DNA of 48,078 nt from Gemmatimonadota bacterium (GTDB lineage Bacteria > Gemmatimonadota > Gemmatimonadetes > Longimicrobiales > Gaopeijiaceae): the NCBI GenBank assembly GCA_050050315.1, contig JASFUL010000001.1, forward strand, positions 1 through 48,078, written 5' to 3'. The position numbers were made by a program, and so were the translations under genes. Within the stretch, counting starts at the first letter, position 1. Every line of letters starts with the position of its first letter. The notes beneath the pieces are model-generated. The model did not search any database and was not told where the DNA came from. It worked only from the letters and a program-made list of their open reading frames with translations. Positions 8,957-39,579 of this stretch are shown one piece after another.

Positions 8957-8977
8957 GACCGCGCTCTCCCCGGCCGG

Positions 8978-9823: not shown

Positions 9824-10662
9824 GCGGCACCTCCCGGGCCGGCGTCCGATCCGGCGCGTCCCGCGGAGGCCGGGACGCGGGCGGCGAGGACGTGGTCCAG
9901 CGCGAAGAGCGCGGCGCCCAGGGCCCCCATGTAGTGGGACTCCTCGCTCACGTTGAGCGGCACGCCCAGGCGTTCCTGGAGGGTCGCGATCATCGCCGTG
10001 TTGCGGGCCACCCCGCCGGTGAACGTGACCTCCTCCTCGACGCCGACCCGACGCAGCAGCCCCGCCGAGCGCGCCGCGATGGACTGGTGCACGCCCAGCA
10101 GGATGTCCTCGATCTTCTTGCCCTTGCCGAGCCAGGACAGCACTTCCGACTCCGCGAACACCGTGCACGTCGTGCTGATCTTGACCGGCCGCTCGCCCTC
10201 CAGCGCGGTGGGTCCGAGCCGGTCGAGGGGGATGTCGAGGGCCCTCGAGGCGGCCCCGAGGAAGCGTCCCGTGCCCGCGGCGCACTTGTCGTTCATGCAG
10301 AAGTCGAGGATCTCGCCCGCGGGCGACACGGAGATGGCCTTGGTGTCCTGGCCCCCCATGTCCACGACCGTGCGCGTGCGGGGGAACATGTGGGCCGCGC
10401 CCCGGCCGTGGCAGGAGATCTCGGTCACCTGGGTGTTGCCGAAAGTCACCTTGTAGCGGCCGTAGCCCGTGCCCACGACGTATTCGACCTCCTCCTCCTG
10501 GAGGTTCCCGGTCCGCAGCGCCTCCTCGAAGGCGCTCTCCGCCGCCCGGATCACGTTGGCGCCGGTCTCCACCAGGGCCCGGGCCGTGATGGCCCGATCC
10601 TCCCCGATGATCACGGCCTTGGTCTGGGTCGATCCGACGTCGACGCCGGCTGCGTATGCCAT
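9820..10662 (-). CDS. Benzoyl-CoA reductase ATPase subunit (BcrD/BzdP-like; HgdC-type activase fold)
   Basis: 280 aa with GGGAGGAG upstream of the ATG. Motifs: [80 protein letters not shown]. Confidence 0.85.
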
Positions 10663-13298: not shown

Positions 13299-14050
13299 CG
13301 GTCGCTCCACTCGGGAGAGCGCTTCTCGACGAACGCCTTCAGCCCCTCCACCGCGTCGGCCGTCTGCATGAGCTCCTCCTGGTAGATCCTGGCGGCCCGG
13401 TCGAGGGCCTCGTCGAGGCCGGGGGCCGCGGCCCGCAGGGCCTTTTTCGTGGCCCGGAGCGACGCCCCGCTGTGACGGGCGATCCGTCCCGCCACCGCCC
13501 GGGCCCGAGCCTCGACCTGGTCGTCGGGCACGACCTCCCGGACCAGCCCCACGTCGAGCGCGGCGCCGGCGTCGAGGGGGTCGCCGGTGAACAGGAGCGC
13601 GGCGGCCGGGCCCGGCGCCACCATGCGGGGGAGGAAGGCGCACGCGGCCGGCGGGAGGACGCCCAGGACGATCTCGGGGACGCCCAGCACCGCTCCTTCG
13701 CCCGCGATCAGCAGGTCGGCGCAGGTGGCGAGCTCGAACCCACCCCCGAGACAGCGCCCGCGCACGGCCGCGACCACCGGGAGGGGGAAGTGGTGGAGGG
13801 CCCGCACGGTGTCCATGAACTCGGGGATCATCCGCTCGTGCTCCGGGGGGAGGTGCTCCTCCACGGACGCGCCGGCGGAGAAGTGCTTCCCCTCGGCCCG
13901 CAGCACCAGGACGCGGAGCCCGGGATCGGCCGCCAGGGCCGCGAGCTCCTCGCGGATCCGCCCCATCACGTCCCGCGTGAGGATGTTCAGGGGCGGGGCG
14001 TCCAGCACCAGCTCGCCGACGCCGCGCTCCACGTTGCTCGTCACGCTCAT
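13295..14050 (-). CDS. Enoyl-CoA hydratase/isomerase family, probable cyclohexa-1,5-dienecarbonyl-CoA hydratase (Dch/BzdW-like)
   Basis: 251 aa with a crotonase fold (VLVLRAEGKHFSAGASVEEH, VAAVRGRCLGGGFELATCADL). AGGAGG lies upstream of the ATG. The Dch assignment rests on context within the BCR/had/oah cluster. Confidence 0.8.
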   Translation of the reverse strand: MSVTSNVERGVGELVLDAPPLNILTRDVMGRIREELAALAADPGLRVLVLRAEGKHFSAGASVEEHLPPEHERMIPEFMDTVRALHHFPLPVVAAVRGRCLGGGFELATCADLLIAGEGAVLGVPEIVLGVLPPAACAFLPRMVAPGPAAALLFTGDPLDAGAALDVGLVREVVPDDQVEARARAVAGRIARHSGASLRATKKALRAAAPGLDEALDRAARIYQEELMQTADAVEGLKAFVEKRSPEWSDR

Positions 14051-14078: not shown

Positions 14079-14825
14079 TCACATGCGCTGCCCGCCGTCC
14101 ACCCGCAGCACCTCCCCCGTCACGTGGCGGGCTCCCTCGGAGCACAGGAACGCGACCGCGGCCGCCACGTCCGACGGCTCGGCCAGCCGCCCGAGCACCG
14201 TCTCCGCCACGGCGGCCCGGACGAACTCCTCGGGCAGGGACGCGGTCATCTTCGTCCGGACCATCCCGGGGGCCACCACGTTGACGGTCACCCCCTTCGG
14301 CCCGAGCTCCCGGGCCAGCGTCTTCGCGAGCCCGATCATGCCGGCCTTGGACGCCGCGTAGTTGGCCTGCCCGAACTTGCCCCGGAGCCCGTTGATGGAG
14401 CTCACGGCGACGACGCGCCCCCATTCCGCCTCCCGCATCAAGGGGGCGACGGCCCGGGCCCACGCGAAGAACCCCTTGAGGTTCACGTCCAGCACGTCGT
14501 CCCACTCGGCCTCGCTCATCTTCCACGAGGCGCGGTCGCGGGCGATCCCCGCGTTGCTCACCAGGACATCGAGCCGTCCCAGCCTCTCCCGGACCTCCCG
14601 GACCACCGCGCCGGCCCGGTCGAGGTCCCGGACGTCGGCCACGTGCGTCGTGCAGCGGTGGCCCATCGCCTCGATCCCGCTGGCCACGTCCCGCATCCCC
14701 TCTACCAACCGATCCACCAGCGCCACGTCGCATCCCTCCGCCGCCAGGGCCCGCGCGACCTCGGCGCCGATACCCCCGCCGGCCCCCGTCACGAGGGCGA
14801 CCCTTCCCGCCAGTCCGGAGTCCAC
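14079..14825 (-). CDS. Short-chain dehydrogenase/reductase (FabG-like 3-oxo/3-hydroxyacyl reductase)
   Basis: GTG start with GGGAGAG upstream. Motifs: TGAGGGIG Rossmann, NAGI, and the catalytic S..YAASK motif (SSINGLRGKFGQANYAASKAG). Confidence 0.85.
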   Translation of the reverse strand: MDSGLAGRVALVTGAGGGIGAEVARALAAEGCDVALVDRLVEGMRDVASGIEAMGHRCTTHVADVRDLDRAGAVVREVRERLGRLDVLVSNAGIARDRASWKMSEAEWDDVLDVNLKGFFAWARAVAPLMREAEWGRVVAVSSINGLRGKFGQANYAASKAGMIGLAKTLARELGPKGVTVNVVAPGMVRTKMTASLPEEFVRAAVAETVLGRLAEPSDVAAAVAFLCSEGARHVTGEVLRVDGGQRM

Positions 14826-14848
14826 CGTCGCTCTCCCGGCTCCGGGCC

Positions 14849-16036
14849 TCAGCCGCCGTCACCCGTGCGGTACTGGGGCGAGACGGCGCGGACGAGGTCG
14901 TCGTTCCACGGGTGCCCGTCGGCCAGCATCTGGCGGAGCTTCACGAAGTCCACCTCCCGGTCGCCCTTGGGGCCCTCGTTGAAGGCCCGGAAGCCGGCCA
15001 GCGCCTCGGTCATCATGTTGAGCGACAGCCACTCCCGGTTGGAGACGTTGTTGACGTCCCAGATCCACTGCTTGTGCTTGCGCAGGGAGTTGACGGTCTT
15101 GGAGGTGCAGTCGGGCATCAGCATGAGGATGCGGGTGCAGAGCGCGTCCACCGCCTCGTCCAGGCGCGACAGGTCGGTCTCGCAGCGCGCCCGGAGCGCC
15201 TTCGCCTCGTCCCGGTCGGCGCCGGTCTTGAGGTCGCCGTACACGACCTTGCCGAAATCGTCGAGGAAGCGGTCGGTGACCACCGTGGGGTCCGGGATCC
15301 ACCGGCCGTCGAGCTTGAGTGCGGGCACGACCTCGTTGAGCAGGCCGTAGTGCAGGGCCTTGTGGGCGGACCACATGTCGCAGAGGACGCCGCTCTCCAT
15401 GGCCCGGGAGAAGCCGACGTACAGCGGCAGGAAGTCGGTGGAGCCTCCGTCCGGGGCCGACCCGTGCTTCGGTCCGGCCTGGCCGAAGCGCGCCGTATCC
15501 ACCGCGACGGAGAAGTCGCACGCCATTCCGATCTCCTGGCCCCCGGCGATCCGCATGCCGTTGACCCGGTTGATCACCGGCTTGTCGCACCGCAGGATGG
15601 CGTCGATCATGTCGTTGAAGAGCCGCATGTACTGCTTGTATTCCTGCGGATTGCCGGCGTAGTACTCGGCGTACTCCTTGGTATTGCCCCCGGTGCAGAA
15701 GGCCCGGTCTCCCACCGCCGTGAAGACGACGGTCACCACGCGCCGGTCCATGCTCGCCTGCCGGAAGGCCAGGATCACCTCCTTCACCGCGTCGGTGGTG
15801 TAGCTGTTGTACTGGGAGGGGTTGTTCAGCGCGATCCAGGCGTTGTAGAGCCCTTCGGCCTCGTTTCCGGCGGGATCGAGGACGGGCCTCAGCTCGTAGA
15901 GGATCTCCGTGAAGCCCTCGGTCGAGCGCTCGGGAACGAGGGTGTGGCTGCGGAGGTGGGGGGGCGGCCCGGCAGGTGGTTCCTGGGACCGGGGCGTCCC
16001 TTCGGTGCGGGTGTCGACGGTCTCGGTCGTGGTCAT
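14849..16036 (-). CDS. oah: 6-oxocyclohex-1-ene-1-carbonyl-CoA hydrolase-like ring-opening enzyme (Oah/BamA/BzdY-like)
   Basis: 395 aa. The crotonase core (VVFTAVGDRAFCTGGN, INRVNGMRIAGGQEIGMACDFSV) carries the long C-terminal extension typical of Oah/BamA (TSKTVNSLRKHKQWIWD..NREWLSLNMMTEALAGFRAFNEG). Confidence 0.85.
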   Translation of the reverse strand: MTTTETVDTRTEGTPRSQEPPAGPPPHLRSHTLVPERSTEGFTEILYELRPVLDPAGNEAEGLYNAWIALNNPSQYNSYTTDAVKEVILAFRQASMDRRVVTVVFTAVGDRAFCTGGNTKEYAEYYAGNPQEYKQYMRLFNDMIDAILRCDKPVINRVNGMRIAGGQEIGMACDFSVAVDTARFGQAGPKHGSAPDGGSTDFLPLYVGFSRAMESGVLCDMWSAHKALHYGLLNEVVPALKLDGRWIPDPTVVTDRFLDDFGKVVYGDLKTGADRDEAKALRARCETDLSRLDEAVDALCTRILMLMPDCTSKTVNSLRKHKQWIWDVNNVSNREWLSLNMMTEALAGFRAFNEGPKGDREVDFVKLRQMLADGHPWNDDLVRAVSPQYRTGDGG

Positions 16037-16124: not shown

Positions 16125-17174
16125 TCAGGCTTCGGGTACGAGGATGGCCCGCCGCTCCAGCTCGTGGTCGGCCACCCGGCGGAGGATCTCCGCGCCCTCG
16201 TCGAGGGAATGTCGCTCGACGAAGGGCTCCAGCGTGATGCGTCCGTCGGTCACCATCCGCAGGGCGTCGGGATACAGATCGGGCAGGCATCCCCACGTGC
16301 CCTGGGCGGTCGCGTCCAGCGCCATCAGGTTGCTCAGGCGCACCCCCACCTTCGCCAGCGTGAAGCCCACGACCATCAGCGTGGACGCGTGGGTCAGCAG
16401 GCCCCACGCGGTGGTCTGGCCCTCGGGGTGGCCCGAGCACTCGAAGATCTTCCAGCGGGTCGACGGACACCCGCCTTCGAAGGCGGCCTTGCGGACCGCC
16501 GCCTTGATACTCCGGAAGTCCAGCGCGGACGCGTTCAGCGTGACGTTCGCCCCCCGGTCCTCCACGGCCGCGAGGCGGTCGGGCTCGACGTCGATGGCGA
16601 CGACGTGGGCGCCGAGGGCCCGGGCGATCTGGACGGCGTGGGTGCCCACGCCTCCGACGCCCACCACCACGGCGAGCTCGCCCGGGCCGAGGCCGCTCCG
16701 GACGATCGCCTGGTAGGGCGTGGTCACCGCGTCGGCCACGACCGAGAGATCGGCCAGGTCGTAGCCCCCCAGGTCGTCCACCGGGCAGAGTCCCCGGGCG
16801 GGGACGACGACGCACTCCGCGAAGCCTCCGTCGATGTCGTTGCCCGGCATGACCTGGGCCTGGCACGCGTTGCCCCGTCCCGCGCGACACAGGTCGCACT
16901 CCCCGCACGGGATTACGGCGGGGACGATCACCTCCCGTCCGACGAGGGTCTCGGCCCCAGGGCCCGCCGCGTCGACGGTCCCCGCGATCTCGTGGCCGAG
17001 GGTGAGGGGAAGGTCCTTCCGGGTGGGTACCCCGTCCTTCCAGAAACCCACGTCCGTGTGGCACACACCACAGCCCGCGACCTTCACGCGGACCTGGTCT
17101 TCCCCCGGCTCGGGCACCGGCACGTCCCGGAGCTCGAGGGGCTCGCCCTGGGCAACGAGCTGGAGGGCCTTCAT
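16125..17174 (-). CDS. had: Zn-dependent MDR alcohol dehydrogenase, probable 6-hydroxycyclohex-1-ene-1-carbonyl-CoA dehydrogenase (Had/BzdX-like)
   Basis: I take the internal ATG 17174 (MKALQLV). Motifs: CGVCHTD, GHEIAG, CGECDLCRAGRGNAC, VVVGVGGVGTHAVQIA. It is adjacent to oah. Confidence 0.85.
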   Translation of the reverse strand: MKALQLVAQGEPLELRDVPVPEPGEDQVRVKVAGCGVCHTDVGFWKDGVPTRKDLPLTLGHEIAGTVDAAGPGAETLVGREVIVPAVIPCGECDLCRAGRGNACQAQVMPGNDIDGGFAECVVVPARGLCPVDDLGGYDLADLSVVADAVTTPYQAIVRSGLGPGELAVVVGVGGVGTHAVQIARALGAHVVAIDVEPDRLAAVEDRGANVTLNASALDFRSIKAAVRKAAFEGGCPSTRWKIFECSGHPEGQTTAWGLLTHASTLMVVGFTLAKVGVRLSNLMALDATAQGTWGCLPDLYPDALRMVTDGRITLEPFVERHSLDEGAEILRRVADHELERRAILVPEA

Positions 17175-17247
17175 GGTCGGCTCCGTGTGTTGAGGCCGTC
17201 CGTTCGGGGACGGCGTCCGGCGGCCCCCACGGGCCGCGTGTCCCCGC

Positions 17248-17859
17248 TCAGGCGGCGAGTCCACCGAGCAGGTGTTCGGCGAAGCGCCGGCCCAGCTCGT
17301 CGGGCTCCGTGCTCCCTCCGGGCCGGTACCAGCGCGCGATCCAGTTGATGGCTCCCAGGATCACGAAGACGGAGGTCTTCGGGTCCACCTTCCGGAAGAC
17401 CCCCGACTCCGTGCCTCGCGCGATGATCCCGCGCAGCGTGTGCTCGTATCTATCGCGACCCGCGATGACCTCCGCCCGCCGCTCGGGCGGCAGGCTCGGG
17501 ACCTCGAACGCCAGGGGGGACCCCTCCAGCGTGTCGGTCATGACGCGGACGTGCTCGCGGATGATGTAGGTGAGGCGCTCGAGGGGATCCTCGCAGCACT
17601 GCTCGGACTCCTCGATGATGCGGTCCAGCTCGGCCAGGGACTCCCGGTGGCACGCGTAGAGGATGGAGTCCTTGTCGGGGAAGTAGTGGTAGAGGGCGGT
17701 CTTCTGGATGCCCAGGCGGCCCGCGATGTCGTCGAGCGTCGTGGCGTGCCAGCCCTGCTCCCGCACGGCCTCGAGGGCCGCGTGCAGGATCTCACGCCGG
17801 CGCCTGGCGCGCTTCTCGAGAACGCGGGGGGAAAGGGTGGCCGACGTGTCGTCGATCAA
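17248..17859 (-). CDS. TetR/AcrR-family transcriptional regulator
   Basis: HTH motif: REILHAALEAVREQGWHATTLDDIAGRLGIQKTALYHYFPDKDSIL. I prefer TTG 17859 (GGAGG 6 nt upstream). The upstream extension to ATG 17919 has AT-rich third positions and contains the operator palindrome. Confidence 0.85.
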   Translation of the reverse strand: MIDDTSATLSPRVLEKRARRRREILHAALEAVREQGWHATTLDDIAGRLGIQKTALYHYFPDKDSILYACHRESLAELDRIIEESEQCCEDPLERLTYIIREHVRVMTDTLEGSPLAFEVPSLPPERRAEVIAGRDRYEHTLRGIIARGTESGVFRKVDPKTSVFVILGAINWIARWYRPGGSTEPDELGRRFAEHLLGGLAA

Positions 17860-17886
17860 ACGGACACCTCCGAGATTTGAAGGTGT

Positions 17887-17901
17887 GTTCAATATTTGAA
17901 C
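17887..17901. promoter_or_regulatory. Perfect 6-3-6 palindrome GTTCAA-TAT-TTGAAC, putative TetR operator/promoter
   Basis: It lies in the only AT-rich patch of the region, about 28 nt upstream of the TetR TTG start. An extra TTGAA half-site sits at 17877-17881. Confidence 0.45.
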
Positions 17902-17985
17902 GACGGGTAGAATTCGCAAGGTCGGGGGGAAGAGTGGCGGGTCGCGCCTACCGCAGCGCCGGGGTCCGGTGGGGCCGGTGGCGGG

Positions 17986-18591
17986 TCAGAAGGAGAAGTG
18001 GACCGGGCCCACGCCCCACTCGTGGCCGACCGTGAACGCGGCCAGGTTCGCGTCGACGGTGCCGGCGGGGACCGTCTCCGCGATGGCGCCGCGCCACGCG
18101 TGGAGGGGCAGCTCCACGTGGTGCGAGACGACGCCGAGGAGCGCCACGCCGGCGAGCTTCGGGTTGCCGAGCTCGGTGGCCGTCCGCAGGGCCGGGAAGA
18201 GCTCGAGGTCGATGTCCCGGGCCCGCGCCAGCCCCTCGAGGTCGTCGGGATAGTCGGCGCTCCGCAGCGCCTCGATCAGCGGCGTGATCCGTTCGTCCCC
18301 GACGACGGCGAGCCCCCCCGGCCGGAGGAGGTCGAGGTGACGGGCGGCCTCGAGGCGCTCGAACGCCACCAGGAGGTCGGCCTCACCCTCGGGCACCACG
18401 GGCGCCAGCTCGTCCGCGCCCCAGCGTACGGCCGTCACCACCGTCCCGCCCCGCTGGGACATCCCGTGCACCTCCGACGTCACCACCGCCCGGCCCGCCC
18501 GTCGGGCGGCCTCGGCGAGGATCCGCGTCGAGAGGACCGATCCCTGTCCCCCCACTCCCGCCAGAACGATGTTCGTGGTCTGCCGGCTCAT
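17986..18591 (-). CDS. iorB: Indolepyruvate/2-oxoacid:ferredoxin oxidoreductase beta (gamma-domain) subunit
   Basis: This is the last 201 aa of track ORF 17986-20997. The ATG at 18591 overlaps the upstream stop (ATGA). Motif: NIVLAGVGGQGSVLSTRILAEAA..EVHGMSQRGG. Confidence 0.85.
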   Translation of the reverse strand: MSRQTTNIVLAGVGGQGSVLSTRILAEAARRAGRAVVTSEVHGMSQRGGTVVTAVRWGADELAPVVPEGEADLLVAFERLEAARHLDLLRPGGLAVVGDERITPLIEALRSADYPDDLEGLARARDIDLELFPALRTATELGNPKLAGVALLGVVSHHVELPLHAWRGAIAETVPAGTVDANLAAFTVGHEWGVGPVHFSF

Positions 18592-21500
18592 CCTCGTCCC
18601 TCCCTGCGTGCCAGGTGTTGCGACGCCAGCTCGGCCGTCCGACGGCCGGTGGCGATCGCCTGGGTGACCGTGCCGTGTCCGAAGGCGGCGTCTCCGCACG
18701 CGAAGACGCCGGGACGGGACGTGGCCCCGGTGAAGTTGGTGGAGATCCTTCCGTTGCTCCGGATGCCGGTGCCGTCGAGGAGGGAGAGGTCCGCGGCTTC
18801 GCCGACCGCCAGGATCACGGAGTCGAAGGGCTCGCCGGTCTCGCTTCCCCCGACGGTCTCGGCCCGCCGGCGTCCGTCCGCCTCGGCCGCCCCCTGTCGC
18901 ATCGCGACGGTCACGATCTCGGCGATGCCGCCGTCGGGTCGCGCGCGCACGCGGACGGGCTGTCGCTGGAAGAGGAAGCGCACGCCTTCCCGGCGTGCCT
19001 CGTCGACCTCCTCCGGGATGGCCGGCATCTCCTCTTCCGTCCGCCGGTAGACGACGACCGCCTCGGCGCCGAGGCGGACCGCCGCGCGGGCGCAGTCGAC
19101 CGCCGTGTTCCCACCCCCGACGATCGCCACCCGGCGACCGATCTCCGGTCGGAGGCCGGCGTTGAAGCGATCGAGGAAGGTGAGGCCCGGAACCACCGCG
19201 TCGCCCACCGACCGCGCCCCCTCCAGGTCGACCACGCGGGAGCGATGATGGCCGACGGCCAGGACCACGGCCCCGTAGCGGGCCTCGAGCTCCTGGAGCG
19301 TCACGTCCTCGCCGACCCGCACGCCACACCGGAAGTCGACGCCGATGGCGCGGAACCGCGCCAGCTCGCCGTCGAGCACCTCCCGGGCCAGGCGGAAGCC
19401 GGGGATCCCCACGCGCAGCATCCCCCCGGGCTCGTCGGCCGACTCGAACACCGTGACCCGCCAGCCGGCCCGGCGGAGCGTCCACGCCGCCGAGAGCCCC
19501 GCCGGTCCGGAGCCCACCACGGCGGCCTCGCCGTCGCGTTCCTCGACGGGTCCGAGGCCCTCCGGGGGGCGCTCGAGGGCCAGGTCGCCGAGCCAGCGCT
19601 CGACCGCCCGCACCGAGATCCGGTCGTCCCGGTCGGCGGCGGGGAACCGATCCACGAGGGAGGGGTGCTCCTCCGCCCGCCGGGCTCCCTGGGGCCACCC
19701 GAGGGAGTTCACCTCCCGCTCGCAGGGGTGGGGACACACGCGGGCGGCCACCGCCGGGAGGGGGTTGGACCGGAGCAGCAGGCGCAGCGCCTCGTCGACC
19801 CGATCCCGGTCCACGAGCTCGAGGAGGAGCGGGACGTCGATGCCCGCGTTGCAGTCCGAGCACACCTGCTGGCACTGGGTGCAGCCGATGCACAGCAGCG
19901 GGCTCACGTGCATGCGCCCGTCGAGCTGCTCGAGCGCCGGGCATCCCAGCTCGGAGCAGGCGAGACATTCGACGCACCGCTCGGGGTCGATCGTCACCGC
20001 CGCTCCGATGCGGAGCTTCTCTTCGAGGACGCACGCCGACCGGGCGACGAGGACCGAGGCCGCGTCGGTCGCGGCGGCCCGGTCCAGGGCTCGCCAGGTC
20101 CCCATCAGGTCGTAGGCGTCGACGCGCTCGACGTCCTCCACGCCCAGGGCGCGGGCGAGCCCCTCGATGTCCACCGCAGGGGCCTCGCCCCCCGAGAGCC
20201 GGTGACCGGTGCCCGGGTGGTCCTGGTGGCCGGTCATGGCCGTCGTGCGGTTGTCCATCACCACCGTGGTGGCCGACCCCTCGTTGTACACGACGTCGAG
20301 GAGGCCCGTGATGCCCGAGTGGTAGAACGTGGAGTCGCCGATCACCGAGACCACCGGCGGGCCGTCCCCCCGCAGCACGTGTGTCATCCCGTGGGCCATC
20401 CCGATGGAGGCGCCCATGCACAGGCACGCGTCCATGGCGTCCAGCGGTGGGAGCGCCCCCAGCGTGTAGCAGCCGATGTCCCCCGAGACGATGGCGCCCA
20501 GACGATGGAGCCCGTGGAAGACGCCGCGATGGGCGCACCCGGGACAGAGGGCCGGGGCGCGCACCGGAAGGGTCGGCAGGGGCGCGGACGGAGCGGCCCG
20601 CGAGTGGGGGTCGGTGGACACCTCCCGGTCCGTACGCTCGCGGGCCCGTCGTGCGCGGCCGTTCCCCAGGAGCGCCTCGACCGACAGCTCGCCCCAGCGC
20701 GGCCACGTCCTCGGTTCGCATTCGACGCCGAGGGCGCGCAGCTGCTCTTCCAGGAAGGGCTCGAGCTCCTCGACCACCAGGACGCGACGCCCTTCCGCGA
20801 AGCGCAGGATGGCGTCGACGGGGAGCGGATAGCTCATCCCGAGCTTCAGCACCGGCGCTCCCGGAAACGCCTCGGCCGCGTACAGGAACGGCACCCCGGC
20901 CGTCACGATCCCGAAGTCCCTCCCCCGGCCTTCCCGCGTCTCGGCCCACGCCTCGGCCTCCGCTTCGAGGGCCGGCATCCTCTGCCCCTCGATCCAACGG
21001 TGCCGGAGACGCCCGTGGGCCGGCAGCACGACGTTCTTCACGCGGTCCTTCCGGTACGGCCGACGGGGGCCGTCCCGGCGCGGGTCGCGGCCCACGAGCC
21101 CCCTCCCGTGCGAGAGGCGCGTGGTGCTCCGCAGCAGCACGGGCGTGTCAAAGCGCTCCGAGAGGTCGAACGCGCGGCGCGTGAAGAGCCGGGCTTCCTC
21201 GGGGGTCGAGGGCTCCAGCAGGGGAAGCCGGGCGGCCCGGGCGAAGTGGCGGTTGTCCTGCTCGTTCTGGGACGAGTGCATCCCCGGGTCGTCGGCCGTC
21301 ACGACCACCAGACCGCCGTTCACCCCCATGTAGGACGCGCTGAAGAGGGGGTCGGCCGCGACGTTCAGCCCCACGTGCTTCATGGTGGCCAGGGCGCGGC
21401 CGCCCGCCAGCGACGCTCCCACGGCCACCTCGAGGGCCACCTTCTCGTTGGGTGACCACTCGCAGTACGGGCCCGCGTCGCCCCCGTCCCCGGGGCCCCC

Positions 21501-21641
21501 GTCGGCGAGTCGTGCGAGGGTCTCGAGGATCTCGGTGCTCGGCGTGCCCGGATAGCCGGCGGCCACCCGGACGCCCCCCTCCCAGGCGCCCCGCGCGATC
21601 GCCTCGTTCCCGGAAAGGAGGGCGCGGGTATCTATGTCCAT
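18588..21641 (-). CDS. Fusion protein: indolepyruvate:ferredoxin oxidoreductase alpha (TPP + 2x[4Fe-4S]) fused to a GltD-like NAD(P)H-dependent FAD oxidoreductase
   Basis: I take the internal ATG 21641 (MDIDTRALLSGNEAIARGAWEGG). TPP motifs are present (GDIGCYTLG, GDSTFYHSGITGLL), as are ferredoxin motifs (CVECLACSELGCP, CIGCTQCQQVCSDC). These are followed by VCPHPCE, AAVVGSGPAGLSAA, VAIVGGGNTAVDCA and GVFACGDA. Confidence 0.85.
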   Translation of the reverse strand: MDIDTRALLSGNEAIARGAWEGGVRVAAGYPGTPSTEILETLARLADGGPGDGGDAGPYCEWSPNEKVALEVAVGASLAGGRALATMKHVGLNVAADPLFSASYMGVNGGLVVVTADDPGMHSSQNEQDNRHFARAARLPLLEPSTPEEARLFTRRAFDLSERFDTPVLLRSTTRLSHGRGLVGRDPRRDGPRRPYRKDRVKNVVLPAHGRLRHRWIEGQRMPALEAEAEAWAETREGRGRDFGIVTAGVPFLYAAEAFPGAPVLKLGMSYPLPVDAILRFAEGRRVLVVEELEPFLEEQLRALGVECEPRTWPRWGELSVEALLGNGRARRARERTDREVSTDPHSRAAPSAPLPTLPVRAPALCPGCAHRGVFHGLHRLGAIVSGDIGCYTLGALPPLDAMDACLCMGASIGMAHGMTHVLRGDGPPVVSVIGDSTFYHSGITGLLDVVYNEGSATTVVMDNRTTAMTGHQDHPGTGHRLSGGEAPAVDIEGLARALGVEDVERVDAYDLMGTWRALDRAAATDAASVLVARSACVLEEKLRIGAAVTIDPERCVECLACSELGCPALEQLDGRMHVSPLLCIGCTQCQQVCSDCNAGIDVPLLLELVDRDRVDEALRLLLRSNPLPAVAARVCPHPCEREVNSLGWPQGARRAEEHPSLVDRFPAADRDDRISVRAVERWLGDLALERPPEGLGPVEERDGEAAVVGSGPAGLSAAWTLRRAGWRVTVFESADEPGGMLRVGIPGFRLAREVLDGELARFRAIGVDFRCGVRVGEDVTLQELEARYGAVVLAVGHHRSRVVDLEGARSVGDAVVPGLTFLDRFNAGLRPEIGRRVAIVGGGNTAVDCARAAVRLGAEAVVVYRRTEEEMPAIPEEVDEARREGVRFLFQRQPVRVRARPDGGIAEIVTVAMRQGAAEADGRRRAETVGGSETGEPFDSVILAVGEAADLSLLDGTGIRSNGRISTNFTGATSRPGVFACGDAAFGHGTVTQAIATGRRTAELASQHLARREGRG

Positions 21642-21814: not shown

Positions 21815-22651
21815 ATGTCCCGCGTGCGTTCCCCGGCCGTGGCCGGACGGTTCTACGCGGCCGATCCGTCGGTCCTCCGGGCCGCCGTGCGCGGCTACCT
21901 CCGGGAGGCGCGCGACGACCCCGCGCTCCCCCGGTCCGCACCACCCGAGGCCCTTGTCGCACCCCACGCCGGGTACGTCTTCTCGGGTCCCGTGGCCGGA
22001 AGCGCATACGCGGCGCTGGCCCGCTCCGGTCGCTCACCCACCACGGTCGTCCTCATCGGTCCGGCGCACTACCGGCCCGTGCGGGGGCTGGCGGTCCCCA
22101 CGGCCCGGGCGTTCCGAACCCCCCTCGGGACCGTGCCGGTGGACGGGGGCGCGATGGAGGCGGCGCGGGCGCTCCCCATCGTCCAGGAGGACGACCGCGC
22201 CCACGCGCCGGAGCACGCCCTCGAGACCCAGATCCCGTTCCTCCAGGTGGTGTTGGGAGACTTCGCCGTCGTGCCGCTGCTGGCCGGCGCTGCGTCGGGC
22301 GGCGAGGTGGCCGCCGTCCTGGACGCCCTGTGGGGCGAGAACACCCTCGTCGTGATCAGCTCGGACCTGAGCCACTACCTCCCCTACGGAGAGGCGCGCC
22401 GGCGGGACGCGCGCACGGCGGCGGCCGTCGAGGCGTTGGATCCGGGGGCGGTCGGGCCCGACGACGCGTGCGGGTGGATGCCGTTGCGGGGTCTCCTGGA
22501 GGCTGCGCGCGGACGGGGCCTGGGGGCCCGGACGCTGGACCTGCGCAACTCGGGCGACACGGTCGGCCCCCGGGACCGCGTGGTCGGATACGGGGCGTTC
22601 GCCTTCGGCGCCGCCGCCGGGGGGAGCGGCCGGGACGGGGGCCATGGCTGA
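21815..22651 (+). CDS. amrB: AmmeMemoRadiSam system protein B (Memo-like)
   Basis: Motifs: PAVAGRFYAADPSVL, APHAGYVFSG, HALETQIPFLQ, ISSDLSHYLPY, ACGWMPL, VVGYGAFAF. Confidence 0.85.
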   Translation: MSRVRSPAVAGRFYAADPSVLRAAVRGYLREARDDPALPRSAPPEALVAPHAGYVFSGPVAGSAYAALARSGRSPTTVVLIGPAHYRPVRGLAVPTARAFRTPLGTVPVDGGAMEAARALPIVQEDDRAHAPEHALETQIPFLQVVLGDFAVVPLLAGAASGGEVAAVLDALWGENTLVVISSDLSHYLPYGEARRRDARTAAAVEALDPGAVGPDDACGWMPLRGLLEAARGRGLGARTLDLRNSGDTVGPRDRVVGYGAFAFGAAAGGSGRDGGHG

Positions 22652-23771
22652 GACGCGCGGGGCCGGGGCCGCCCCTCCCGGGGGCGAGGCGGGCGCCTTC
22701 CAGACGGCGCTGGTCGACGGTCGCGTCCGCTGCGACGTGTGCCCACGGGAGTGCAAGCTGCGGGACGGCCAGCGGGGCCTCTGCTTCCTGCGCAGGAACG
22801 AAGGGGGACGGATCGTGCTGACGACGTACGGCCGTTCCAGCGGCTACTGCGTGGACCCCATCGAGAAGAAGCCGCTCAACCACTTCCTGCCGGGCACGCC
22901 GGTCCTCTCCTTCGGAACGGCCGGCTGCAACCTGACCTGCCGATTCTGCCAGAACTGGGACATCTCGAAGTCCCGCGAGATGGACCGCCTCATGGACGAG
23001 GCGGAACCGCGGACGATCGCCGAAGCGGCCGAGCGGCTGGGGTGCCGGAGCGTGGCCTTCACGTACAACGACCCGGTCATCTTCCACGAGTACGCGGTGG
23101 ACGTGGCGGACGCGTGCCGGGAGCGGGGCATCCACCCCGTCGCGGTCACGGCCGGGTACCAGAAGCCCGCGGCCCGCGAGGCGTTCTACGACCACATGGA
23201 CGCCGCCAACGTCGACCTCAAGGGCTTCCGCGAGGCGTTCTACCGGGAGCTGTGCACGGGCTCGCTCCAGCCGGTCCTCGACACCCTCCTCCACCTCCGC
23301 CACGGGACCGACGTCTGGTTCGAGATCACCACGCTCCTCATCCCCGGCGCCAACGACTCCGACGCCGAGATCCACGACCTGACGGCCTGGATCGTGGACC
23401 AGCTCGGACCCGACGTCCCGGTCCACTTCACCGCGTTCCACCCGGACTTCCGCATGCGGGACCGCCCCCCCACGCCGCCGGCGACGCTCCGGCGCGCCCG
23501 GAAGATCGGCCGGGCCAACGGCCTGCGCTTCGTCTACACGGGCAACGTCCACGACGCCGAGGGCGGGAGCACGTGGTGCCCGGGCTGCGGGCAGCTCCTG
23601 ATCGGTCGGGACTGGTACGTCCTCTCGGCATGGCACCTGGACGCCGGGGGATGCTGCAGCCGGTGCGGGACCGAGGTGCCCGGACGCTTCGAGGCGGAGC
23701 CGGGGACGTGGGGCGCCCGGCGCATGCCGGTCCGGCTGGGGGCCGTCCGGGATCCGGGGGGCTCCCAGTGA
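22644..23771 (+). CDS. amrS: AmmeMemoRadiSam system radical SAM enzyme
   Basis: It overlaps amrB by 8 nt. Motifs: RCDVCPRECKLRDGQRGLCFLRRN, DPIEKKPLNHFLPG, radical SAM CNLTCRFCQNW, HFTAFHPDF, and a C-terminal CPGCG..CSRCG. Confidence 0.85.
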   Translation: MAETRGAGAAPPGGEAGAFQTALVDGRVRCDVCPRECKLRDGQRGLCFLRRNEGGRIVLTTYGRSSGYCVDPIEKKPLNHFLPGTPVLSFGTAGCNLTCRFCQNWDISKSREMDRLMDEAEPRTIAEAAERLGCRSVAFTYNDPVIFHEYAVDVADACRERGIHPVAVTAGYQKPAAREAFYDHMDAANVDLKGFREAFYRELCTGSLQPVLDTLLHLRHGTDVWFEITTLLIPGANDSDAEIHDLTAWIVDQLGPDVPVHFTAFHPDFRMRDRPPTPPATLRRARKIGRANGLRFVYTGNVHDAEGGSTWCPGCGQLLIGRDWYVLSAWHLDAGGCCSRCGTEVPGRFEAEPGTWGARRMPVRLGAVRDPGGSQ

Positions 23772-24718
23772 CGCCGGCCTACCTGGAGCTCGGGCTCGAC
23801 GCGCTGCGGGGGCGGGCGCGACGGGCGCTCCGGGAGCTGGCCGACTGCCGGCTCTGTCCCCGCGACTGCGGCGTGGATCGGCGGTCGGGCAAGTGGTCGG
23901 CGTGCAAGACGGGCCGCTGGGCCGTGGTGTCCAGCGCCTTCCCCCACTTCGGAGAGGAGGACTGCCTGCGGGGGCGGTACGGGTCGGGCACGATCTTCTT
24001 CGCCCACTGCAACCTCCGCTGCGTCTTCTGTCAGAACTTCGAGATCAGCCAGGGCGTGCGGCCCGGACCCCCGAGGGCGGGCGGGGCCCGCCCGTCCTCG
24101 TCCGAGGCCCTCGCCCGCACGATGCTGCGGCTGCAGGCGCTCGGCTGTCACAACCTCAACTTCGTCACCCCGGAGCACGTGGTCCCCCAGATGCTCGAGG
24201 CGCTCGTCCTGGCGGTGGAGGGGGGGCTGGCGCTGCCGGTCGTCTACAACACGAGCGCCTACGACTCGCTCGAGAGCCTCCGTCTCCTCGACGGCGTCGT
24301 GGACATCTACATGCCGGACTTCAAGCTGTGGAGCCCGGAGGCGAGCGAGCGCTACCTGAAGGCCCGCGACTACCCGGAGGCCGCCCGGGCGGCGATCGCG
24401 GAGATGCACCGTCAGGTGGGCGACCTGGTCGTCGGGGCCGACGGCCTGGCCCGGCGGGGCGTGCTGGTCCGACACCTCGTGATGCCCGGGATGCCGGGCG
24501 AGACCGAGGCGATCCTCGACTGGCTCGCCGCCGAGCTCGGCCCGGGGACGTACGTGAACGTCATGGGGCAGTACGGGCCCGCCGGTCGCGTCCGCGGCTC
24601 GGCCTACGCCGAGATCGGCCGGCCGCTCCGGGGAGACGAGTTGGCCGCCGCCGTGGGGTACGCCCGGGACCTGGGGCTCCGGCTGGACGAGCGGCGGAGC
24701 CGGCGCCCGGCGCTCTGA
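23768..24718 (+). CDS. Radical SAM protein, PflX-like (PFL-activase-related, COG1313-type)
   Basis: GTG 23768 overlaps the amrS stop (GTGA). Motifs: CRLCPRDCGVDR, GEEDCLRG..GSGTIFFAHCNLRCVFCQNFEIS (CX3CX2C), CHNLNFVTPEH, YMPDFK. Confidence 0.8.
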   Translation: MTPAYLELGLDALRGRARRALRELADCRLCPRDCGVDRRSGKWSACKTGRWAVVSSAFPHFGEEDCLRGRYGSGTIFFAHCNLRCVFCQNFEISQGVRPGPPRAGGARPSSSEALARTMLRLQALGCHNLNFVTPEHVVPQMLEALVLAVEGGLALPVVYNTSAYDSLESLRLLDGVVDIYMPDFKLWSPEASERYLKARDYPEAARAAIAEMHRQVGDLVVGADGLARRGVLVRHLVMPGMPGETEAILDWLAAELGPGTYVNVMGQYGPAGRVRGSAYAEIGRPLRGDELAAAVGYARDLGLRLDERRSRRPAL

Positions 24719-24850
24719 GGCCCGGCCCGGAGGCGCGGGGTCCGCACCCGCCGGGCCCGCCGCCGGCCGTTCCGCACCCGCGGGTTGCAGCCCGGACGCC
24801 GGTCGCGCACCTTGGAGGCCCTCCCGAAGACCCCTTCAAGGTGAAAGGAA

Positions 24851-39570: not shown

Positions 39571-39579
39571 GAGGCCGGC

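What the first reader, a model, noticed from the sequence alone, without database searches (positions are those of the whole stretch)
17986..21641. IorA fused to a GltD-like NAD(P)H-FAD module: a candidate dedicated low-potential electron generator for the reductase
Seen: one uninterrupted 1017-aa ORF contains two parts.
- An IorA-type TPP enzyme with its two ferredoxin-like [4Fe-4S] motifs.
- A complete glutamate-synthase-small-subunit-like module: an Fe-S Cys motif (VCPHPCE), the FAD site GSGPAGLSAA and the NAD(P)H site VGGGNTAVDCA.

The ORF is ATGA-coupled to iorB and lies directly upstream of the TetR/BCR block on the same strand.

Established: class I BCR requires reduced low-potential ferredoxin. 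From memory, Thauera co-induces a 2-oxoglutarate:ferredoxin oxidoreductase and Azoarcus uses an NADP-linked 2-oxoglutarate oxidoreductase. GltD-like modules are the NAD(P)H entry points of several bifurcating Fe-S flavoenzymes.

Inference: the fusion may link 2-oxoacid oxidation and NAD(P)(H) in one complex. It may even deliver electrons to the BCR without a free ferredoxin, which would explain the missing fdx gene.
Basis: partly seen in the sequence, partly recalled or inferred. Interest (0 to 1): 0.65.

Follow-up and report, generated by a model that had tools for sequence, protein, structure and literature searches.

The report
IorA fused to NfnB-like NADPH flavoprotein
This is a real, conserved gene that joins the catalytic subunit of an aromatic 2-oxoacid oxidoreductase to an NADPH-binding flavoprotein, so the enzyme probably passes its electrons to NADP+ rather than to ferredoxin. 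Its tie to the neighbouring benzoyl-CoA reductase genes holds in this bacterial lineage but is not a general property of the fusion.

Summary
A 1017-aa ORF on the minus strand (18588..21641) contains a full-length IorA followed by a GltD/NfnB-like FAD/NAD(P)H module. It overlaps iorB by ATGA and lies upstream of TetR, had, oah, dch and a divergent class I BCR block.

The fusion is not an artefact. About 100 sequence clusters of the same ~1000-aa architecture exist (48-66% identity; Longimicrobiales, Bipolaricaulota and others), and they align colinearly across the junction.

The junction is adapted. A five-Cys motif (C584-C597) merges IorA's second ferredoxin motif with the flavoprotein's first Fe-S motif, and the last Cys of the second Fe-S motif is lost. 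This implies four [4Fe-4S] clusters rather than five.

The flavoprotein half is closest to NfnB-type modules. No NfnA-like partner gene is present in any locus.

Across 14 loci:
- IorB is adjacent in 14.
- An acyl-CoA-to-ATP module (Ptb plus kinase, or an ADP-forming synthetase) is adjacent in 10.
- BCR genes are nearby in 4 of 13, all from one clade.

The best reading is an NADP+-reducing arylpyruvate-type oxidoreductase that feeds substrate-level phosphorylation. A role as a dedicated, ferredoxin-free BCR reductant is not excluded, but it is unsupported. I rate it a new variant of a known kind, of moderate interest.

The parts
18588..21641 (-). Fusion gene, 1017 aa: IorA plus an NfnB/GltD-like flavoprotein
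   Evidence: ORF and translation. Pfam and NCBIfam matches. About 100 full-length homologue clusters. AF2 model with pLDDT 91.4 and pTM 0.88.
19857..21626 (-). IorA part, residues 6-595: POR_N, the TPP domain (GDSTFYHSG 435-443) and a 2x[4Fe-4S] ferredoxin domain. The proximal-cluster Cys are C366, C369, C391 and C537.
   Evidence: TIGR03336 scores 632 bits and covers model positions 2-591 of 595. These Cys are invariant in 121 sequences.
19851..19892 (-). Junction, residues 584-597: the five-Cys motif C584-x2-C587-x2-C590-x3-C594-x2-C597. It merges ferredoxin motif 2 with NfnB/DPD motif 1.
   Evidence: Stand-alone IorA proteins end at C594. HMMER aligns the T. maritima NfnB motif C39-x2-C42-x4-C47-x3-C51 onto C587..C597. 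C597 is invariant in all fusions.
18603..19853 (-). NfnB/GltD-like module, residues 597-1013:
- VCPHPCE (C636, C640; the last Cys of the motif is replaced by V644)
- FAD site GSGPAG 710-715
- NAD(P)H site GGGNTA 842-847
- YRR 865-867
   Evidence: PDB sequence hits: NfnABC 9n5u_A at 256 bits, NfnI-L 5jca_L at 212 bits, true GltD at 143 bits. Foldseek TM-score 0.76-0.78, normalised to the target, against NfnI-L and NfnB. Invariant residues.
17986..18591 (-). iorB (201 aa), translationally coupled to the fusion gene by an ATGA overlap
   Evidence: PF01558 at E 1e-33, and IorB NCBIfam models. Overlap read directly. Adjacent to the fusion in 14 of 14 loci.
17248..17919 (-). TetR-family regulator. 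It overlaps the start of had by 17 nt.
   Evidence: TetR_N plus TetR_C_24.
16125..17264 (-). [quoted passage not shown]
   Evidence: TIGR03201 scores 464 bits against a cut-off of 339.
14849..16036 (-). [quoted passage not shown]
   Evidence: TIGR03200 scores 570 bits against a cut-off of 464.
14079..14825 (-). SDR, FabG/acetoacetyl-CoA-reductase-like
13295..14050 (-). dch-like enoyl-CoA hydratase
   Evidence: Best NCBIfam hit is TIGR03189 at 183 bits, below its cut-off of 292.
12126..13298 (-). BcrC-like HGD-D subunit. Its start overlaps the dch stop codon.
   Evidence: TIGR02263 at E 1e-76, below its cut-off. Start position.
10709..12061 (-). BcrB-like HGD-D subunit
   Evidence: TIGR02260 at E 5e-60, below its cut-off.
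8978..10662 (-). Two BcrA/D-type ATPase subunits, at 9820..10662 and 8978..9823
   Evidence: PF01869 and TIGR00241; best equivalog hits are benz_CoA_red_A and benz_CoA_red_D.
8651..8977 (-). Small conserved ORF after the ATPase genes. It has only a CxxC pair and is not a ferredoxin.
   Evidence: No family hit. Homologues sit at the same position in L081, L085 and L171.
6478..8687 (+). Phosphate butyryltransferase-like gene (about 6478..7494) and butyrate kinase gene (about 7575..8687), convergent with the end of the BCR block. Both start positions are approximate.
   Evidence: PF01515. Butyrate kinase model TIGR02707 at 394 bits against a cut-off of 289. The same pair lies next to iorB in L001, L081, L085, L088, L089, L171, L172 and L173.

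Best explanation
The gene encodes the large subunit of a two-subunit indolepyruvate-type 2-oxoacid oxidoreductase (IorA-flavoprotein plus IorB) that has acquired its own NADP+-reducing exit.

Proposed mechanism:
1. TPP-dependent oxidative decarboxylation of an arylpyruvate-type 2-oxoacid yields the acyl-CoA and two low-potential electrons.
2. The electrons travel one at a time through the TPP-proximal [4Fe-4S], then the two clusters of the IorA ferredoxin domain, then a single remaining NfnB-type [4Fe-4S] next to the flavin. That makes four clusters in all.
3. The junction is a hybrid ferredoxin/DPD-II domain, in which the flavoprotein's own distal cluster has been replaced by the IorA ferredoxin cluster.
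4. FAD collects both electrons and reduces NADP+.
5. The acyl-CoA is then converted by the linked phosphotransacylase and acyl kinase to the acid plus ATP.

In this window and its closest relatives the module sits beside a benzoyl-CoA degradation cluster. The most likely reason is that both belong to one aromatic-compound or aromatic-amino-acid regulon (TetR here, PaaX elsewhere).

What is shown: the ORF, its domains, the invariant cofactor motifs, the coupling to iorB, and the neighbourhood statistics.
What is inferred: the electron path, the cluster count, NADP+ as acceptor, the substrate class and the physiological role.
For: Domain architecture and motifs.

Conservation:
- About 100 clusters of full-length fusions, colinear across the junction.
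- Invariant Cys sets: C366/369/391/537, C556/559/562/567, C584/587/590/594, C597 and C636/640.
- Invariant GSGPAG, GGGNTA and Y865-R866-R867.
- The NADPH-site segment aligns almost residue for residue with the NADP(H)-bound NfnI-L and with T. maritima NfnB.

Structure:
- The flavoprotein half is structurally NfnB-like. Foldseek probability is 1.0, and the TM-score normalised to the target is 0.76-0.78.
- The whole-chain AF2 model is confident, with pLDDT 91.4 and pTM 0.88. This suggests a fixed inter-domain geometry.

Partners:
- No NfnA/PyrK-like gene in the window or in 13 other loci.
- IorB is adjacent in 14 of 14 loci.
- Ptb plus acyl kinase is adjacent in 9 of 14, and an ADP-forming acyl-CoA synthetase in 1 of 14.
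- Among 52 stand-alone iorAB loci the count for Ptb/Buk is 0.

Precedents and parallels:
- The trio of OFOR, phosphotransacylase and acyl kinase has been demonstrated biochemically as the oxidative branch of aromatic amino acid fermentation (PMC13285125).
- In Bipolaricaulota-type loci the neighbouring four-subunit OFORs also carry GltD-like modules, so NAD(P) coupling of OFORs is a general strategy there.
- A second, topologically different IorA/GltD-like fusion class exists.
Against: - There is no biochemical evidence for this family. The acceptor, NADP+ versus NAD+ versus an external ferredoxin, is inferred from motifs only.
- The IorA part scores just below the curated IOR_alpha cut-off (632 against 651 bits), so the substrate could differ from classical arylpyruvates.
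- The four-cluster model rests on Cys bookkeeping and on ligand assignments for DPD and NfnB recalled from memory. I could not inspect model coordinates.
- Within the Longimicrobiales-like clade the fusion is linked to BCR genes in two different gene orders, and no ferredoxin gene is nearby. A pure amino-acid-fermentation role does not explain this.
- The neighbourhood counts are not phylogenetically independent.
Confidence: 0.6

Rival explanations
1. The IOR-flavoprotein complex is the low-potential electron generator for the adjacent class I BCR. Electrons would leave the Fe-S wire for a ferredoxin encoded elsewhere, or go directly to the BCR ATPase-module cluster. The NADP(H) module would act as an overflow or priming valve, by analogy with the BCR-associated 2-oxoglutarate oxidoreductases of Thauera and Azoarcus.
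For: - The genes are co-directional and tightly packed from iorA to the last BCR gene, with overlapping stops and starts.
- BCR genes lie within 10 kb of the fusion in the window, L081, L085 and L171, in two different gene orders. The count for 52 stand-alone iorAB loci is 0.
- The neighbour-joining tree places the window basal to that clade, so the linkage may be old.
- No ferredoxin gene is present in the window or in the three other BCR-linked loci.
- There is precedent for OFORs in BCR clusters, including an NADP+-reducing one in Azoarcus evansii (cited in PMC8163825; PMC5736913).
Against: - The fusion is older and broader than the BCR linkage. Nine of 13 evaluable loci lack BCR genes, including all Bipolaricaulota-type loci.
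- Closely related Longimicrobiales loci keep the fusion, IorB, Ptb and Buk but have no BCR genes nearby (L001, L089, L172).
- A wired NADP+ exit lowers the reducing power available to BCR.
- The distal ferredoxin cluster is now followed by the flavoprotein module, not left at the end of the chain.
- No docking or carrier element was found. The small conserved ORF has only a CxxC pair.
Confidence: 0.2
2. A pathway link, not an electron link. The enzyme makes an aromatic acyl-CoA that enters or regulates the neighbouring pathway. One option is benzoyl-CoA from phenylglyoxylate, as the NAD+-dependent phenylglyoxylate dehydrogenase does. Another is phenylacetyl-CoA from phenylpyruvate, acting as the inducer sensed by PaaX.
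For: - A PaaX-family regulator sits between the BCR block and the fusion in L081, L085 and L171. From my own knowledge, its known effector in other bacteria is phenylacetyl-CoA.
- IorAB converts phenylpyruvate to phenylacetyl-CoA in Aromatoleum (PMC9765128).
- Phenylglyoxylate dehydrogenase is a five-subunit OFOR that yields benzoyl-CoA with NAD+.
- The window has no benzoate-CoA ligase gene.
Against: - No phenylacetyl-CoA alpha-oxidation genes (padBCD-like) are in the window.
- Substrate specificity cannot be read from the sequence.
- The window has a TetR regulator where the other loci have PaaX.
- The fusion also occurs where no aromatic-pathway genes are nearby.
Confidence: 0.12
3. A flavin-based electron-bifurcating or confurcating enzyme, or an enzyme that runs in reverse. 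In the first case the NfnB-like FAD splits NADPH electrons between the low-potential Fe-S wire and a second acceptor. In the second case the complex carboxylates arylacetyl-CoA reductively.
For: The flavoprotein half is most similar to the bifurcating-type NfnB, NfnI-L and NfnABC modules, not to glutamate synthase beta. The role of GltD-like modules in Nfn is reviewed in PMC8097209.
Against: - No NfnA/PyrK-like or other second-branch partner gene is present in any of the 14 loci.
- Only one Fe-S path leads away from the flavin.
- Reductive carboxylation with NADPH alone is strongly endergonic, by standard potentials recalled from my own knowledge.
- The linked Ptb/Buk or ADP-forming synthetase genes fit the catabolic direction.
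Confidence: 0.05
4. An assembly or frameshift artefact has joined separate iorA and gltD-like genes.
For: None found.
Against: - The ORF is uninterrupted and has gene-like base composition by codon position throughout (GC of 0.77, 0.56 and 0.89 at positions 1-3).
- About 100 independent clusters from NCBI, ENA, JGI and Logan assemblies share the same length and a gap-free junction.
- The junction carries family-specific invariant residues: C597 is present and the last Cys of the second Fe-S motif is lost.
Confidence: 0.01

Closest known systems
Canonical indolepyruvate:ferredoxin oxidoreductase IorAB (for example Pyrococcus furiosus; TIGR03336/TIGR03334)
   Same: - Full-length IorA core with a TPP site, four proximal-cluster Cys and a 2x[4Fe-4S] ferredoxin domain.
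- A separate IorB, translationally coupled.
- 52-55% identity to stand-alone IorA proteins over residues 6-595.
   Different: - Carries a 420-residue NfnB-like FAD/NAD(P)H module directly after the last ferredoxin Cys.
- The presumed acceptor is NADP+, not free ferredoxin.
- The score is slightly below the curated IOR_alpha cut-off.
NfnB / NfnI-L / NfnABC / StnC, the GltD-like NADPH-FAD-[4Fe-4S] modules of electron-bifurcating transhydrogenases (PDB 4ylf_B, 5jca_L, 9n5u_A, 9bov_A, 8oh5_C)
   Same: - Best sequence and fold matches for residues ~590-1013.
- Same FAD and NADPH motifs, including YRR.
- Same VCPxxCE motif next to the flavin.
   Different: - No NfnA or other second-branch partner.
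- Motif 1 is merged with the IorA ferredoxin motif, and the last Cys of motif 2 is absent. Probably only the flavin-proximal cluster is retained.
- The module is fused to a TPP enzyme.
Glutamate synthase small subunit GltD and the N-terminal half of dihydropyrimidine dehydrogenase
   Same: Same superfamily and fold. In these enzymes the FAD acts as a plain two-electron/one-electron switch between NADPH and an Fe-S chain. That is the behaviour proposed here, running in the opposite direction.
   Different: Lower similarity (143 bits against 212-256 bits for the Nfn types). All curated GltD-family cut-offs are missed. The distal cluster ligands are missing.
NAD(P)+-reducing 2-oxoacid oxidoreductases: Azoarcus evansii 2-oxoglutarate:NADP+ oxidoreductase, phenylglyoxylate:NAD+ oxidoreductase (PadE-I), and Euglena/Cryptosporidium pyruvate:NADP+ oxidoreductase
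   Same: Same functional idea: an OFOR whose electrons end on a pyridine nucleotide through a bound flavin. The first two operate in anaerobic aromatic degradation next to benzoyl-CoA reductase. Details of these enzymes are from my own knowledge.
   Different: - The OFOR types differ: KorAB-type, a five-subunit type and PFOR, against the IOR type here.
- As far as I recall, the flavoprotein modules also differ.
- Homology between their flavin parts and this module could not be tested. The key paper is not held, and no Pad flavoprotein model was hit.
OFOR delta-subunit/GltD-like fusions, and the second IorA/GltD-like fusion class of ~1100-1190 aa
   Same: A GltD/NfnB-like module is attached to the ferredoxin element of a 2-oxoacid oxidoreductase. 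These genes lie directly beside class 1 fusions in Bipolaricaulota-type loci. The second class has 37-44% identity over the whole length.
   Different: - In those proteins the flavoprotein precedes the ferredoxin domain. In the long IorA class it is inserted between the TPP domain and a C-terminal ferredoxin domain.
- The second motif keeps its last Cys.
- The window protein has the flavoprotein last, with the merged five-Cys junction.

Membership tests
IOR alpha subunit (TIGR03336) | Full-length match to the IOR_alpha model at or above the curated score | tested here: inconclusive
   The match covers model positions 2-591 of 595 at E 6e-190. The score is 632.4 bits against a cut-off of 650.9.
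IOR alpha subunit (TIGR03336) | TPP-binding motif, four Cys for the proximal [4Fe-4S], and two CxxCxxCxxxC ferredoxin motifs | tested here: met
   GDSTFYHSG at 435-443. C366, C369, C391, C537, C556/559/562/567 and C584/587/590/594 are invariant in 121 sequences, including stand-alone IorA proteins.
IOR alpha subunit (TIGR03336) | Adjacent iorB partner gene | tested here: met
   ATGA overlap with a PF01558/IorB gene. IorB is adjacent in 14 of 14 fusion loci.
IOR alpha subunit (TIGR03336) | Arylpyruvate-dependent reduction of ferredoxin | not testable with these tools
   This requires an enzyme assay.
GltD/NfnB-like NAD(P)H:Fe-S flavoprotein | FAD and NAD(P)H dinucleotide-binding motifs and the corresponding fold | tested here: met
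   - GSGPAG at 710-715, GGGNTA at 842-847 and YRR at 865-867 are all invariant.
- Pyr_redox_2 at E 5e-34.
- Foldseek probability 1.0 against NfnB, NfnI-L and GltD.
GltD/NfnB-like NAD(P)H:Fe-S flavoprotein | An N-terminal domain of its own with two [4Fe-4S] clusters (motif C-x2-C-x4-C-x3-C plus motif C-x(3-5)-C-x3-C) | tested here: not met
   - Only C597, C636 and C640 are not already part of the IorA ferredoxin motifs.
- The last Cys of the second motif is V644.
- The Fer4_20 match is partial, 24-83 of 113.
GltD/NfnB-like NAD(P)H:Fe-S flavoprotein | Curated family score (gltA, gltD_gamma_fam, GOGAT_sm_gam, PRK12771) | tested here: not met
   All hits fall below their cut-offs. The best is PRK12771 at 342 bits against 516.
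Electron-bifurcating Nfn (NfnAB/NfnABC/Stn) | A second-branch partner: an NfnA/PyrK-like [2Fe-2S]-FAD subunit, or NuoE/F-like subunits | tested here: not met
   No such domain is found in any Pfam-scanned gene of the window or in the gene tables of the 13 other loci.
BCR electron-donor system (Thauera KorAB+Fdx; Azoarcus KGOR+BzdV+BzdM) | Genomic linkage of the OFOR to BCR genes | tested here: inconclusive
   The feature is met in the window and in L081, L085 and L171. It is absent in 9 of 13 evaluable fusion loci, including close relatives.
BCR electron-donor system (Thauera KorAB+Fdx; Azoarcus KGOR+BzdV+BzdM) | A low-potential ferredoxin gene within the cluster | tested here: not met
   The only CxxCxxCxxxC motifs in the 48-kb window are inside the fusion gene. 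L081, L085 and L171 have no gene whose only domain is Fer4.
BCR electron-donor system (Thauera KorAB+Fdx; Azoarcus KGOR+BzdV+BzdM) | Co-induction with BCR and reduction of BCR in vitro | not testable with these tools
   This requires expression data and biochemistry.

The most novel reading that the evidence does not exclude
In Longimicrobiales-type Gemmatimonadota the IorA-NfnB-like/IorB complex is the physiological, ferredoxin-free reductant of a divergent class I benzoyl-CoA reductase. Low-potential electrons from 2-oxoacid decarboxylation would be handed from the hybrid Fe-S wire directly to the BCR ATPase module. The NADP(H)-flavin site would buffer or gate the flow. That would be a new way to power ATP-dependent ring reduction.
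Probability: 0.08. Interest if true: 0.8.

Novelty: new variant of a known kind. Interest (0 to 1): 0.45.

Why it matters
If the enzyme is an NADP+-reducing IOR, several things follow:
- 2-oxoacid:ferredoxin oxidoreductases have been hard-wired to pyridine nucleotides with GltD/NfnB-like modules at least twice in the IOR family alone.
- The enzyme would be a compact, ferredoxin-independent route from aromatic 2-oxoacids to acyl-CoA, NADPH and ATP.
- Metabolic reconstructions should then stop counting these genes as ferredoxin reducers in Gemmatimonadota and Bipolaricaulota.

The merged five-Cys junction is a tidy natural example of two Fe-S domains sharing one cluster site.

The recurring linkage to a ferredoxin-less class I BCR cluster also offers a tractable system. 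It could be used to ask how ATP-dependent benzoyl-CoA reductases obtain low-potential electrons in organisms whose linked 2-oxoacid oxidoreductase appears to reduce NADP+. As far as I know, that question is still unresolved for the Azoarcus type.

Tried and rejected
- **Genome-contig scan with the full protein.** Of the 80 loci, 78 were plain iorAB. Only L001 and the truncated L002 were fusions. The 78 were reused as a baseline.
- **Metagenome-contig scan with a junction/flavoprotein alignment.** The pattern RVCPHPC[DE] is shared by many unrelated NfnB-like proteins. Only L091 was a class 1 fusion, so the scan gave no usable neighbourhood statistics.
- **Regulatory and RNA searches.** These looked for operator palindromes in the iorA upstream region and the iorB-tetR gap, promoters and terminators, Rfam families and tRNAs. 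Nothing informative turned up.
- **The small ORF 8651..8977 as the missing ferredoxin.** Rejected: only a CxxC pair is conserved.
- **PadF as a GltD-like flavoprotein.** I had recalled this, but PadF is the ~100-aa delta subunit. No Pad flavoprotein model was hit by the module, so no homology claim is made.
- **Ebenau-Jehle et al. 2003 on the Azoarcus KGOR.** The paper is not held. What kind of protein BzdV is could not be established from the held papers.
- **Cluster-member look-up for taxonomy.** It returned no organism names.
- **Literature searches pairing IorA or indolepyruvate with GltD, NfnB or SudA.** No description of this fusion was found.

Full report
**1. What is there**

The window has about 72% G+C, so long spurious ORFs abound. 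The true reading frame was identified from base composition by codon position (third-position GC 0.89) and from homology.

The finding corresponds to a minus-strand ORF at 18588..21641 that encodes 1017 aa. It starts at an ATG preceded by GAAGGG. The longer GTG-initiated extension to 22037 overlaps the divergent Memo-like gene and is not matched by homologues.

Domain searches give the following:
- NCBIfam IOR_alpha (TIGR03336) aligns end to end: residues 6-595 against model positions 2-591 of 595, E 6e-190, 632 bits against a curated cut-off of 651.
- A series of GltD-family models cover residues 584-1013, all below their cut-offs.
- Pfam finds POR_N, TPP_enzyme_C, Fer4_10, a partial Fer4_20 and Pyr_redox_2.

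The stop codon overlaps the iorB start as ATGA.

Downstream on the same strand, with short gaps or overlapping stop and start codons, lie these genes:
- a TetR regulator
- had and oah, both above their NCBIfam equivalog cut-offs
- an SDR
- a dch-like hydratase
- two HGD-D subunits whose best hits are BcrC and BcrB
- two BcrA/D-type ATPases
- a small conserved ORF

The reductase subunits fall below the curated BCR cut-offs, so I call the enzyme a divergent class I BCR-like reductase.

Convergent with the end of that block are a phosphate butyryltransferase-like gene and a butyrate kinase gene.

No other ferredoxin-type Cys motif exists anywhere in the 48 kb.

**2. The fusion is real and adapted**

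A search of 5.8 billion proteins returned about 100 clusters (90% identity level) of ~1000-aa proteins. They cover 97-100% of the query at 48-66% identity. The source names that exist are Longimicrobiales and Bipolaricaulota/Acetothermia.

These proteins align without gaps across the junction. A frameshift or assembly artefact is therefore excluded for practical purposes.

Stand-alone IorA proteins end exactly at the fourth Cys of the second ferredoxin motif (C594). In the fusions the chain continues 'xDC(N/P)AGxD(V/I)P...'. This is the start of the NfnB/DPD domain-II helix bundle.

HMMER aligns the first Fe-S motif of T. maritima NfnB, C39-x2-C42-x4-C47-x3-C51, onto C587, C590, C594 (offset by one residue) and C597. 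The five-Cys string C584-x2-C587-x2-C590-x3-C594-x2-C597 is therefore two things at once: IorA's ferredoxin motif 2, and the flavoprotein's motif 1.

In the second flavoprotein motif only C636 and C640 (VCPHPCE) are present. The final Cys, present in NfnABC (VCPAFCEEEC) and NfnB, is V644 here and is never Cys in this class.

The Cys bookkeeping runs as follows. The ligand assignments for ferredoxins and for pig DPD are recalled from my own knowledge. For DPD they are: nFeS1 = C79, C82, C87, C140; nFeS2 = C91, C130, C136, Q156.
- Eleven invariant Cys remain after the four proximal-cluster Cys (C366, C369, C391, C537).
- Eleven Cys are enough for three clusters, not four.
- These would be the two ferredoxin clusters plus the flavin-proximal cluster (C597, C636, C640 and one non-Cys ligand).
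- The flavoprotein's distal cluster therefore appears to have been replaced by the IorA ferredoxin cluster.

This is an inference, because I could not read the model coordinates. The AF2 model itself is confident as a whole chain (pLDDT 91.4, pTM 0.88), which suggests a fixed domain arrangement.

**3. What the flavoprotein half resembles**

By sequence, the best solved relatives are the following:

| Relative | Bits |
|---|---|
| NADPH/FAD module of Thermococcus sibiricus NfnABC (9n5u_A) | 256 |
| P. furiosus NfnI-L (5jca_L) | 212 |
| T. maritima NfnB (4ylf_B) | 210 |
| Caldicellulosiruptor Nfn-ABC (9bov_A) | 207 |
| Xfn (5vj7_A) | 194 |
| Sporomusa StnC (8oh5_C) | 192 |
| True glutamate synthase beta | 143 |

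By fold the order is the same. No solved structure covers both halves: the TM-score normalised to the query is at most 0.37.

The NAD(P)H-site segment, including Y865-R866-R867, is invariant in the family. It is nearly identical to the NADP(H)-binding Nfn proteins, so I infer NADP(H).

Nfn-type bifurcation needs a second electron branch (review PMC8097209). No NfnA/PyrK-like or NuoE/F-like gene occurs in the window or in any of the 13 other loci. The flavin is therefore more likely a plain two-electron/one-electron converter, as in GltD and DPD.

**4. Genomic company**

I obtained 13 further class 1 loci.

| Locus type | Loci (query protein) | Arrangement |
|---|---|---|
| Same full set as the window, different order | L081 (P0004), L085 (P0010), L171 (P0009) | [ADH, small ORF, 2 BcrAD, 2 HGD-D, 2 ECH] <- PaaX <- -> MaoC, fusion, IorB -> <- kinase, Ptb |
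| No BCR genes, downstream side otherwise syntenic with the row above | L001, L089, L172, L173; L088 (upstream side cut off) | fusion, IorB -> <- kinase, Ptb |
| ADP-forming synthetase in place of Ptb/kinase | L090 | ADP-forming acyl-CoA synthetase directly after IorB; an Oah homologue (60% identity to the window's) plus a Dch-like gene 8-10 kb upstream |
| Bipolaricaulota type | L082/L083, L086 | The fusion follows a four-subunit OFOR whose delta subunit is itself fused to a GltD-like module |
| Other | L087 | Two further OFORs with GltD-like partners, and a glutamate dehydrogenase gene |
| Other | L084 | No BCR genes and no phosphorylation module |

The tally:
- IorB adjacent: 14 of 14.
- Ptb plus kinase, or an ADP-forming synthetase: 10 of 14.
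- BCR genes within 10 kb: 4 of 13 evaluable.

As a baseline, 52 stand-alone iorAB loci of at least 12 kb from many phyla showed 0 Ptb/Buk and 0 BCR hits.

A neighbour-joining tree puts the window basal to the Longimicrobiales-like clade, with BCR-linked and BCR-free loci interleaved. In that clade the BCR linkage is thus probably old and sometimes lost. In the window the BCR block sits between iorB and buk-ptb. In the L081 type it sits upstream of the fusion. These counts are not phylogenetically independent.

**5. A wider family**

An exhaustive search of 1.84 billion representatives placed the window protein in essentially one 50%-identity cluster (representative P0042). It also revealed at least 30 further clusters of 1090-1190-aa proteins at 35-44% identity that match over the whole length.

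In these proteins the GltD-like module is inserted after the TPP domain, and the 2x[4Fe-4S] ferredoxin domain follows at the C-terminus. The second motif keeps its last Cys (RVCxRPCExxC). One member also has IorB fused.

IOR and GltD-like modules have therefore been joined in at least two topologies.

**6. Interpretation**

The best-supported mechanism is an NADP+-reducing IOR:
1. TPP-dependent decarboxylation of an arylpyruvate-type 2-oxoacid.
2. Electron transfer through four [4Fe-4S] clusters to FAD.
3. Hydride transfer to NADP+.
4. Conversion of the acyl-CoA by Ptb and Buk (elsewhere by an ADP-forming synthetase) to the acid plus ATP.

The trio of OFOR, phosphotransacylase and acyl kinase has been demonstrated as the oxidative branch of aromatic amino acid fermentation (PMC13285125). 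IorAB makes phenylacetyl-CoA from phenylpyruvate in Aromatoleum (PMC9765128).

It has real points in its favour within this clade:
- the linkage recurs in two gene orders;
- no fdx gene is present in any BCR-linked locus;
- there is precedent for BCR-associated OFORs, including an NADP+-reducing one in Azoarcus.

Against it:
- the fusion is broader and older than the linkage;
- close relatives keep the fusion without BCR genes;
- an NADP+ exit dissipates the low potential that BCR needs.

A third possibility is a pathway or regulatory link, through phenylacetyl-CoA sensed by PaaX, or benzoyl-CoA made from phenylglyoxylate. The sequence data cannot separate these options.

**7. Novelty**

I found no paper describing an IorA-GltD/NfnB fusion. 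Source annotations are generic: 'indolepyruvate ferredoxin oxidoreductase alpha subunit' or 'FAD-dependent oxidoreductase'.

The principle of an OFOR wired to a pyridine nucleotide is already known, as far as I recall, from three enzymes: pyruvate:NADP+ oxidoreductase, the Azoarcus KGOR and phenylglyoxylate:NAD+ oxidoreductase.

I therefore rate this a new variant of a known kind, with moderate interest. The hybrid Fe-S junction and the recurrent pairing with a ferredoxin-less BCR cluster are the features most worth experimental follow-up.

Noticed in passing
P0122-P0131, P0135, P0141-P0146, P0183 and others; not in the window: A second, more diverse class of IorA/GltD-like fusions, 1090-1190 aa long. 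The flavoprotein is inserted between the TPP domain and a C-terminal 2x[4Fe-4S] domain. P0135 (1384 aa) also has IorB fused at the end.
   Followed up: partly
L082 6296-7951, L086 6293-7948, L087 1-875 and 4524-6281: In Bipolaricaulota-type contigs the neighbouring four-subunit 2-oxoacid oxidoreductases also carry GltD-like modules, either fused to the delta/ferredoxin subunit or as a separate gene. One contig (L087) therefore holds three OFOR systems, each with an apparent NAD(P)H module, next to ACS/CODH genes.
   Followed up: partly
window 8651-8977 (-); L081 1881-2147, L085 1767-2039, L171 1605-1880: A small ORF of 88-108 aa with no family hit always follows the second BCR ATPase gene. Conserved features are GW(T/R)RRF, LYR, a CxxC pair and a YTR motif. 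Its function is unknown, and it is not a ferredoxin.
   Followed up: partly
L081, L085, L171 (about 8300-9800 in each): A PaaX-family regulator and a divergent MaoC-like dehydratase gene lie between the BCR block and the fusion gene. The window has a TetR regulator in the corresponding role. PaaX hints that phenylacetyl-CoA is the signal.
   Followed up: no
window 8978-17264 (-): A benzoyl-CoA degradation cluster sits in what looks like a Longimicrobiales-related (Gemmatimonadota) genome. had and oah pass the curated cut-offs, while the four reductase subunits are divergent. The window has no benzoate-CoA ligase gene. The ptb-buk pair could in principle activate an aromatic acid.
   Followed up: partly
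window 21815-23771 (+): Divergent from the fusion gene are a Memo-like gene (21815..22651) and an overlapping radical SAM gene (22644..23771). This resembles an AmmeMemoRadiSam-type pair. The following ORF, 23893..24844, has no Pfam hit.
   Followed up: no
L081, L085, L089, L171, L172 downstream of ptb: A syntenic block follows ptb: an unannotated ~441-aa protein, a cbb3-type cytochrome c (~150 aa), a DAO-family flavoprotein (~460 aa) and RecQ. It is shared by BCR-linked and BCR-free loci. This suggests the BCR block was gained or lost as a cassette.
   Followed up: no
window 39571-42042 (+) and 35521-39570 (+): A gene trio of an ATP-dependent zinc protease-like protein, a RimK ATP-grasp protein and a succinylglutamate desuccinylase/aspartoacylase-like protein. 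It is preceded by a 1349-aa protein that combines PD40 beta-propeller repeats with an amidohydrolase domain.
   Followed up: no
L090 1-1700 and 13635-15911: In this fusion locus an ADP-forming acyl-CoA synthetase takes the place of Ptb/Buk directly after iorB. An Oah homologue (60% identity to the window's) and a Dch-like gene lie 8-10 kb upstream. BCR genes, if present, would lie beyond the fetched flank.
   Followed up: no
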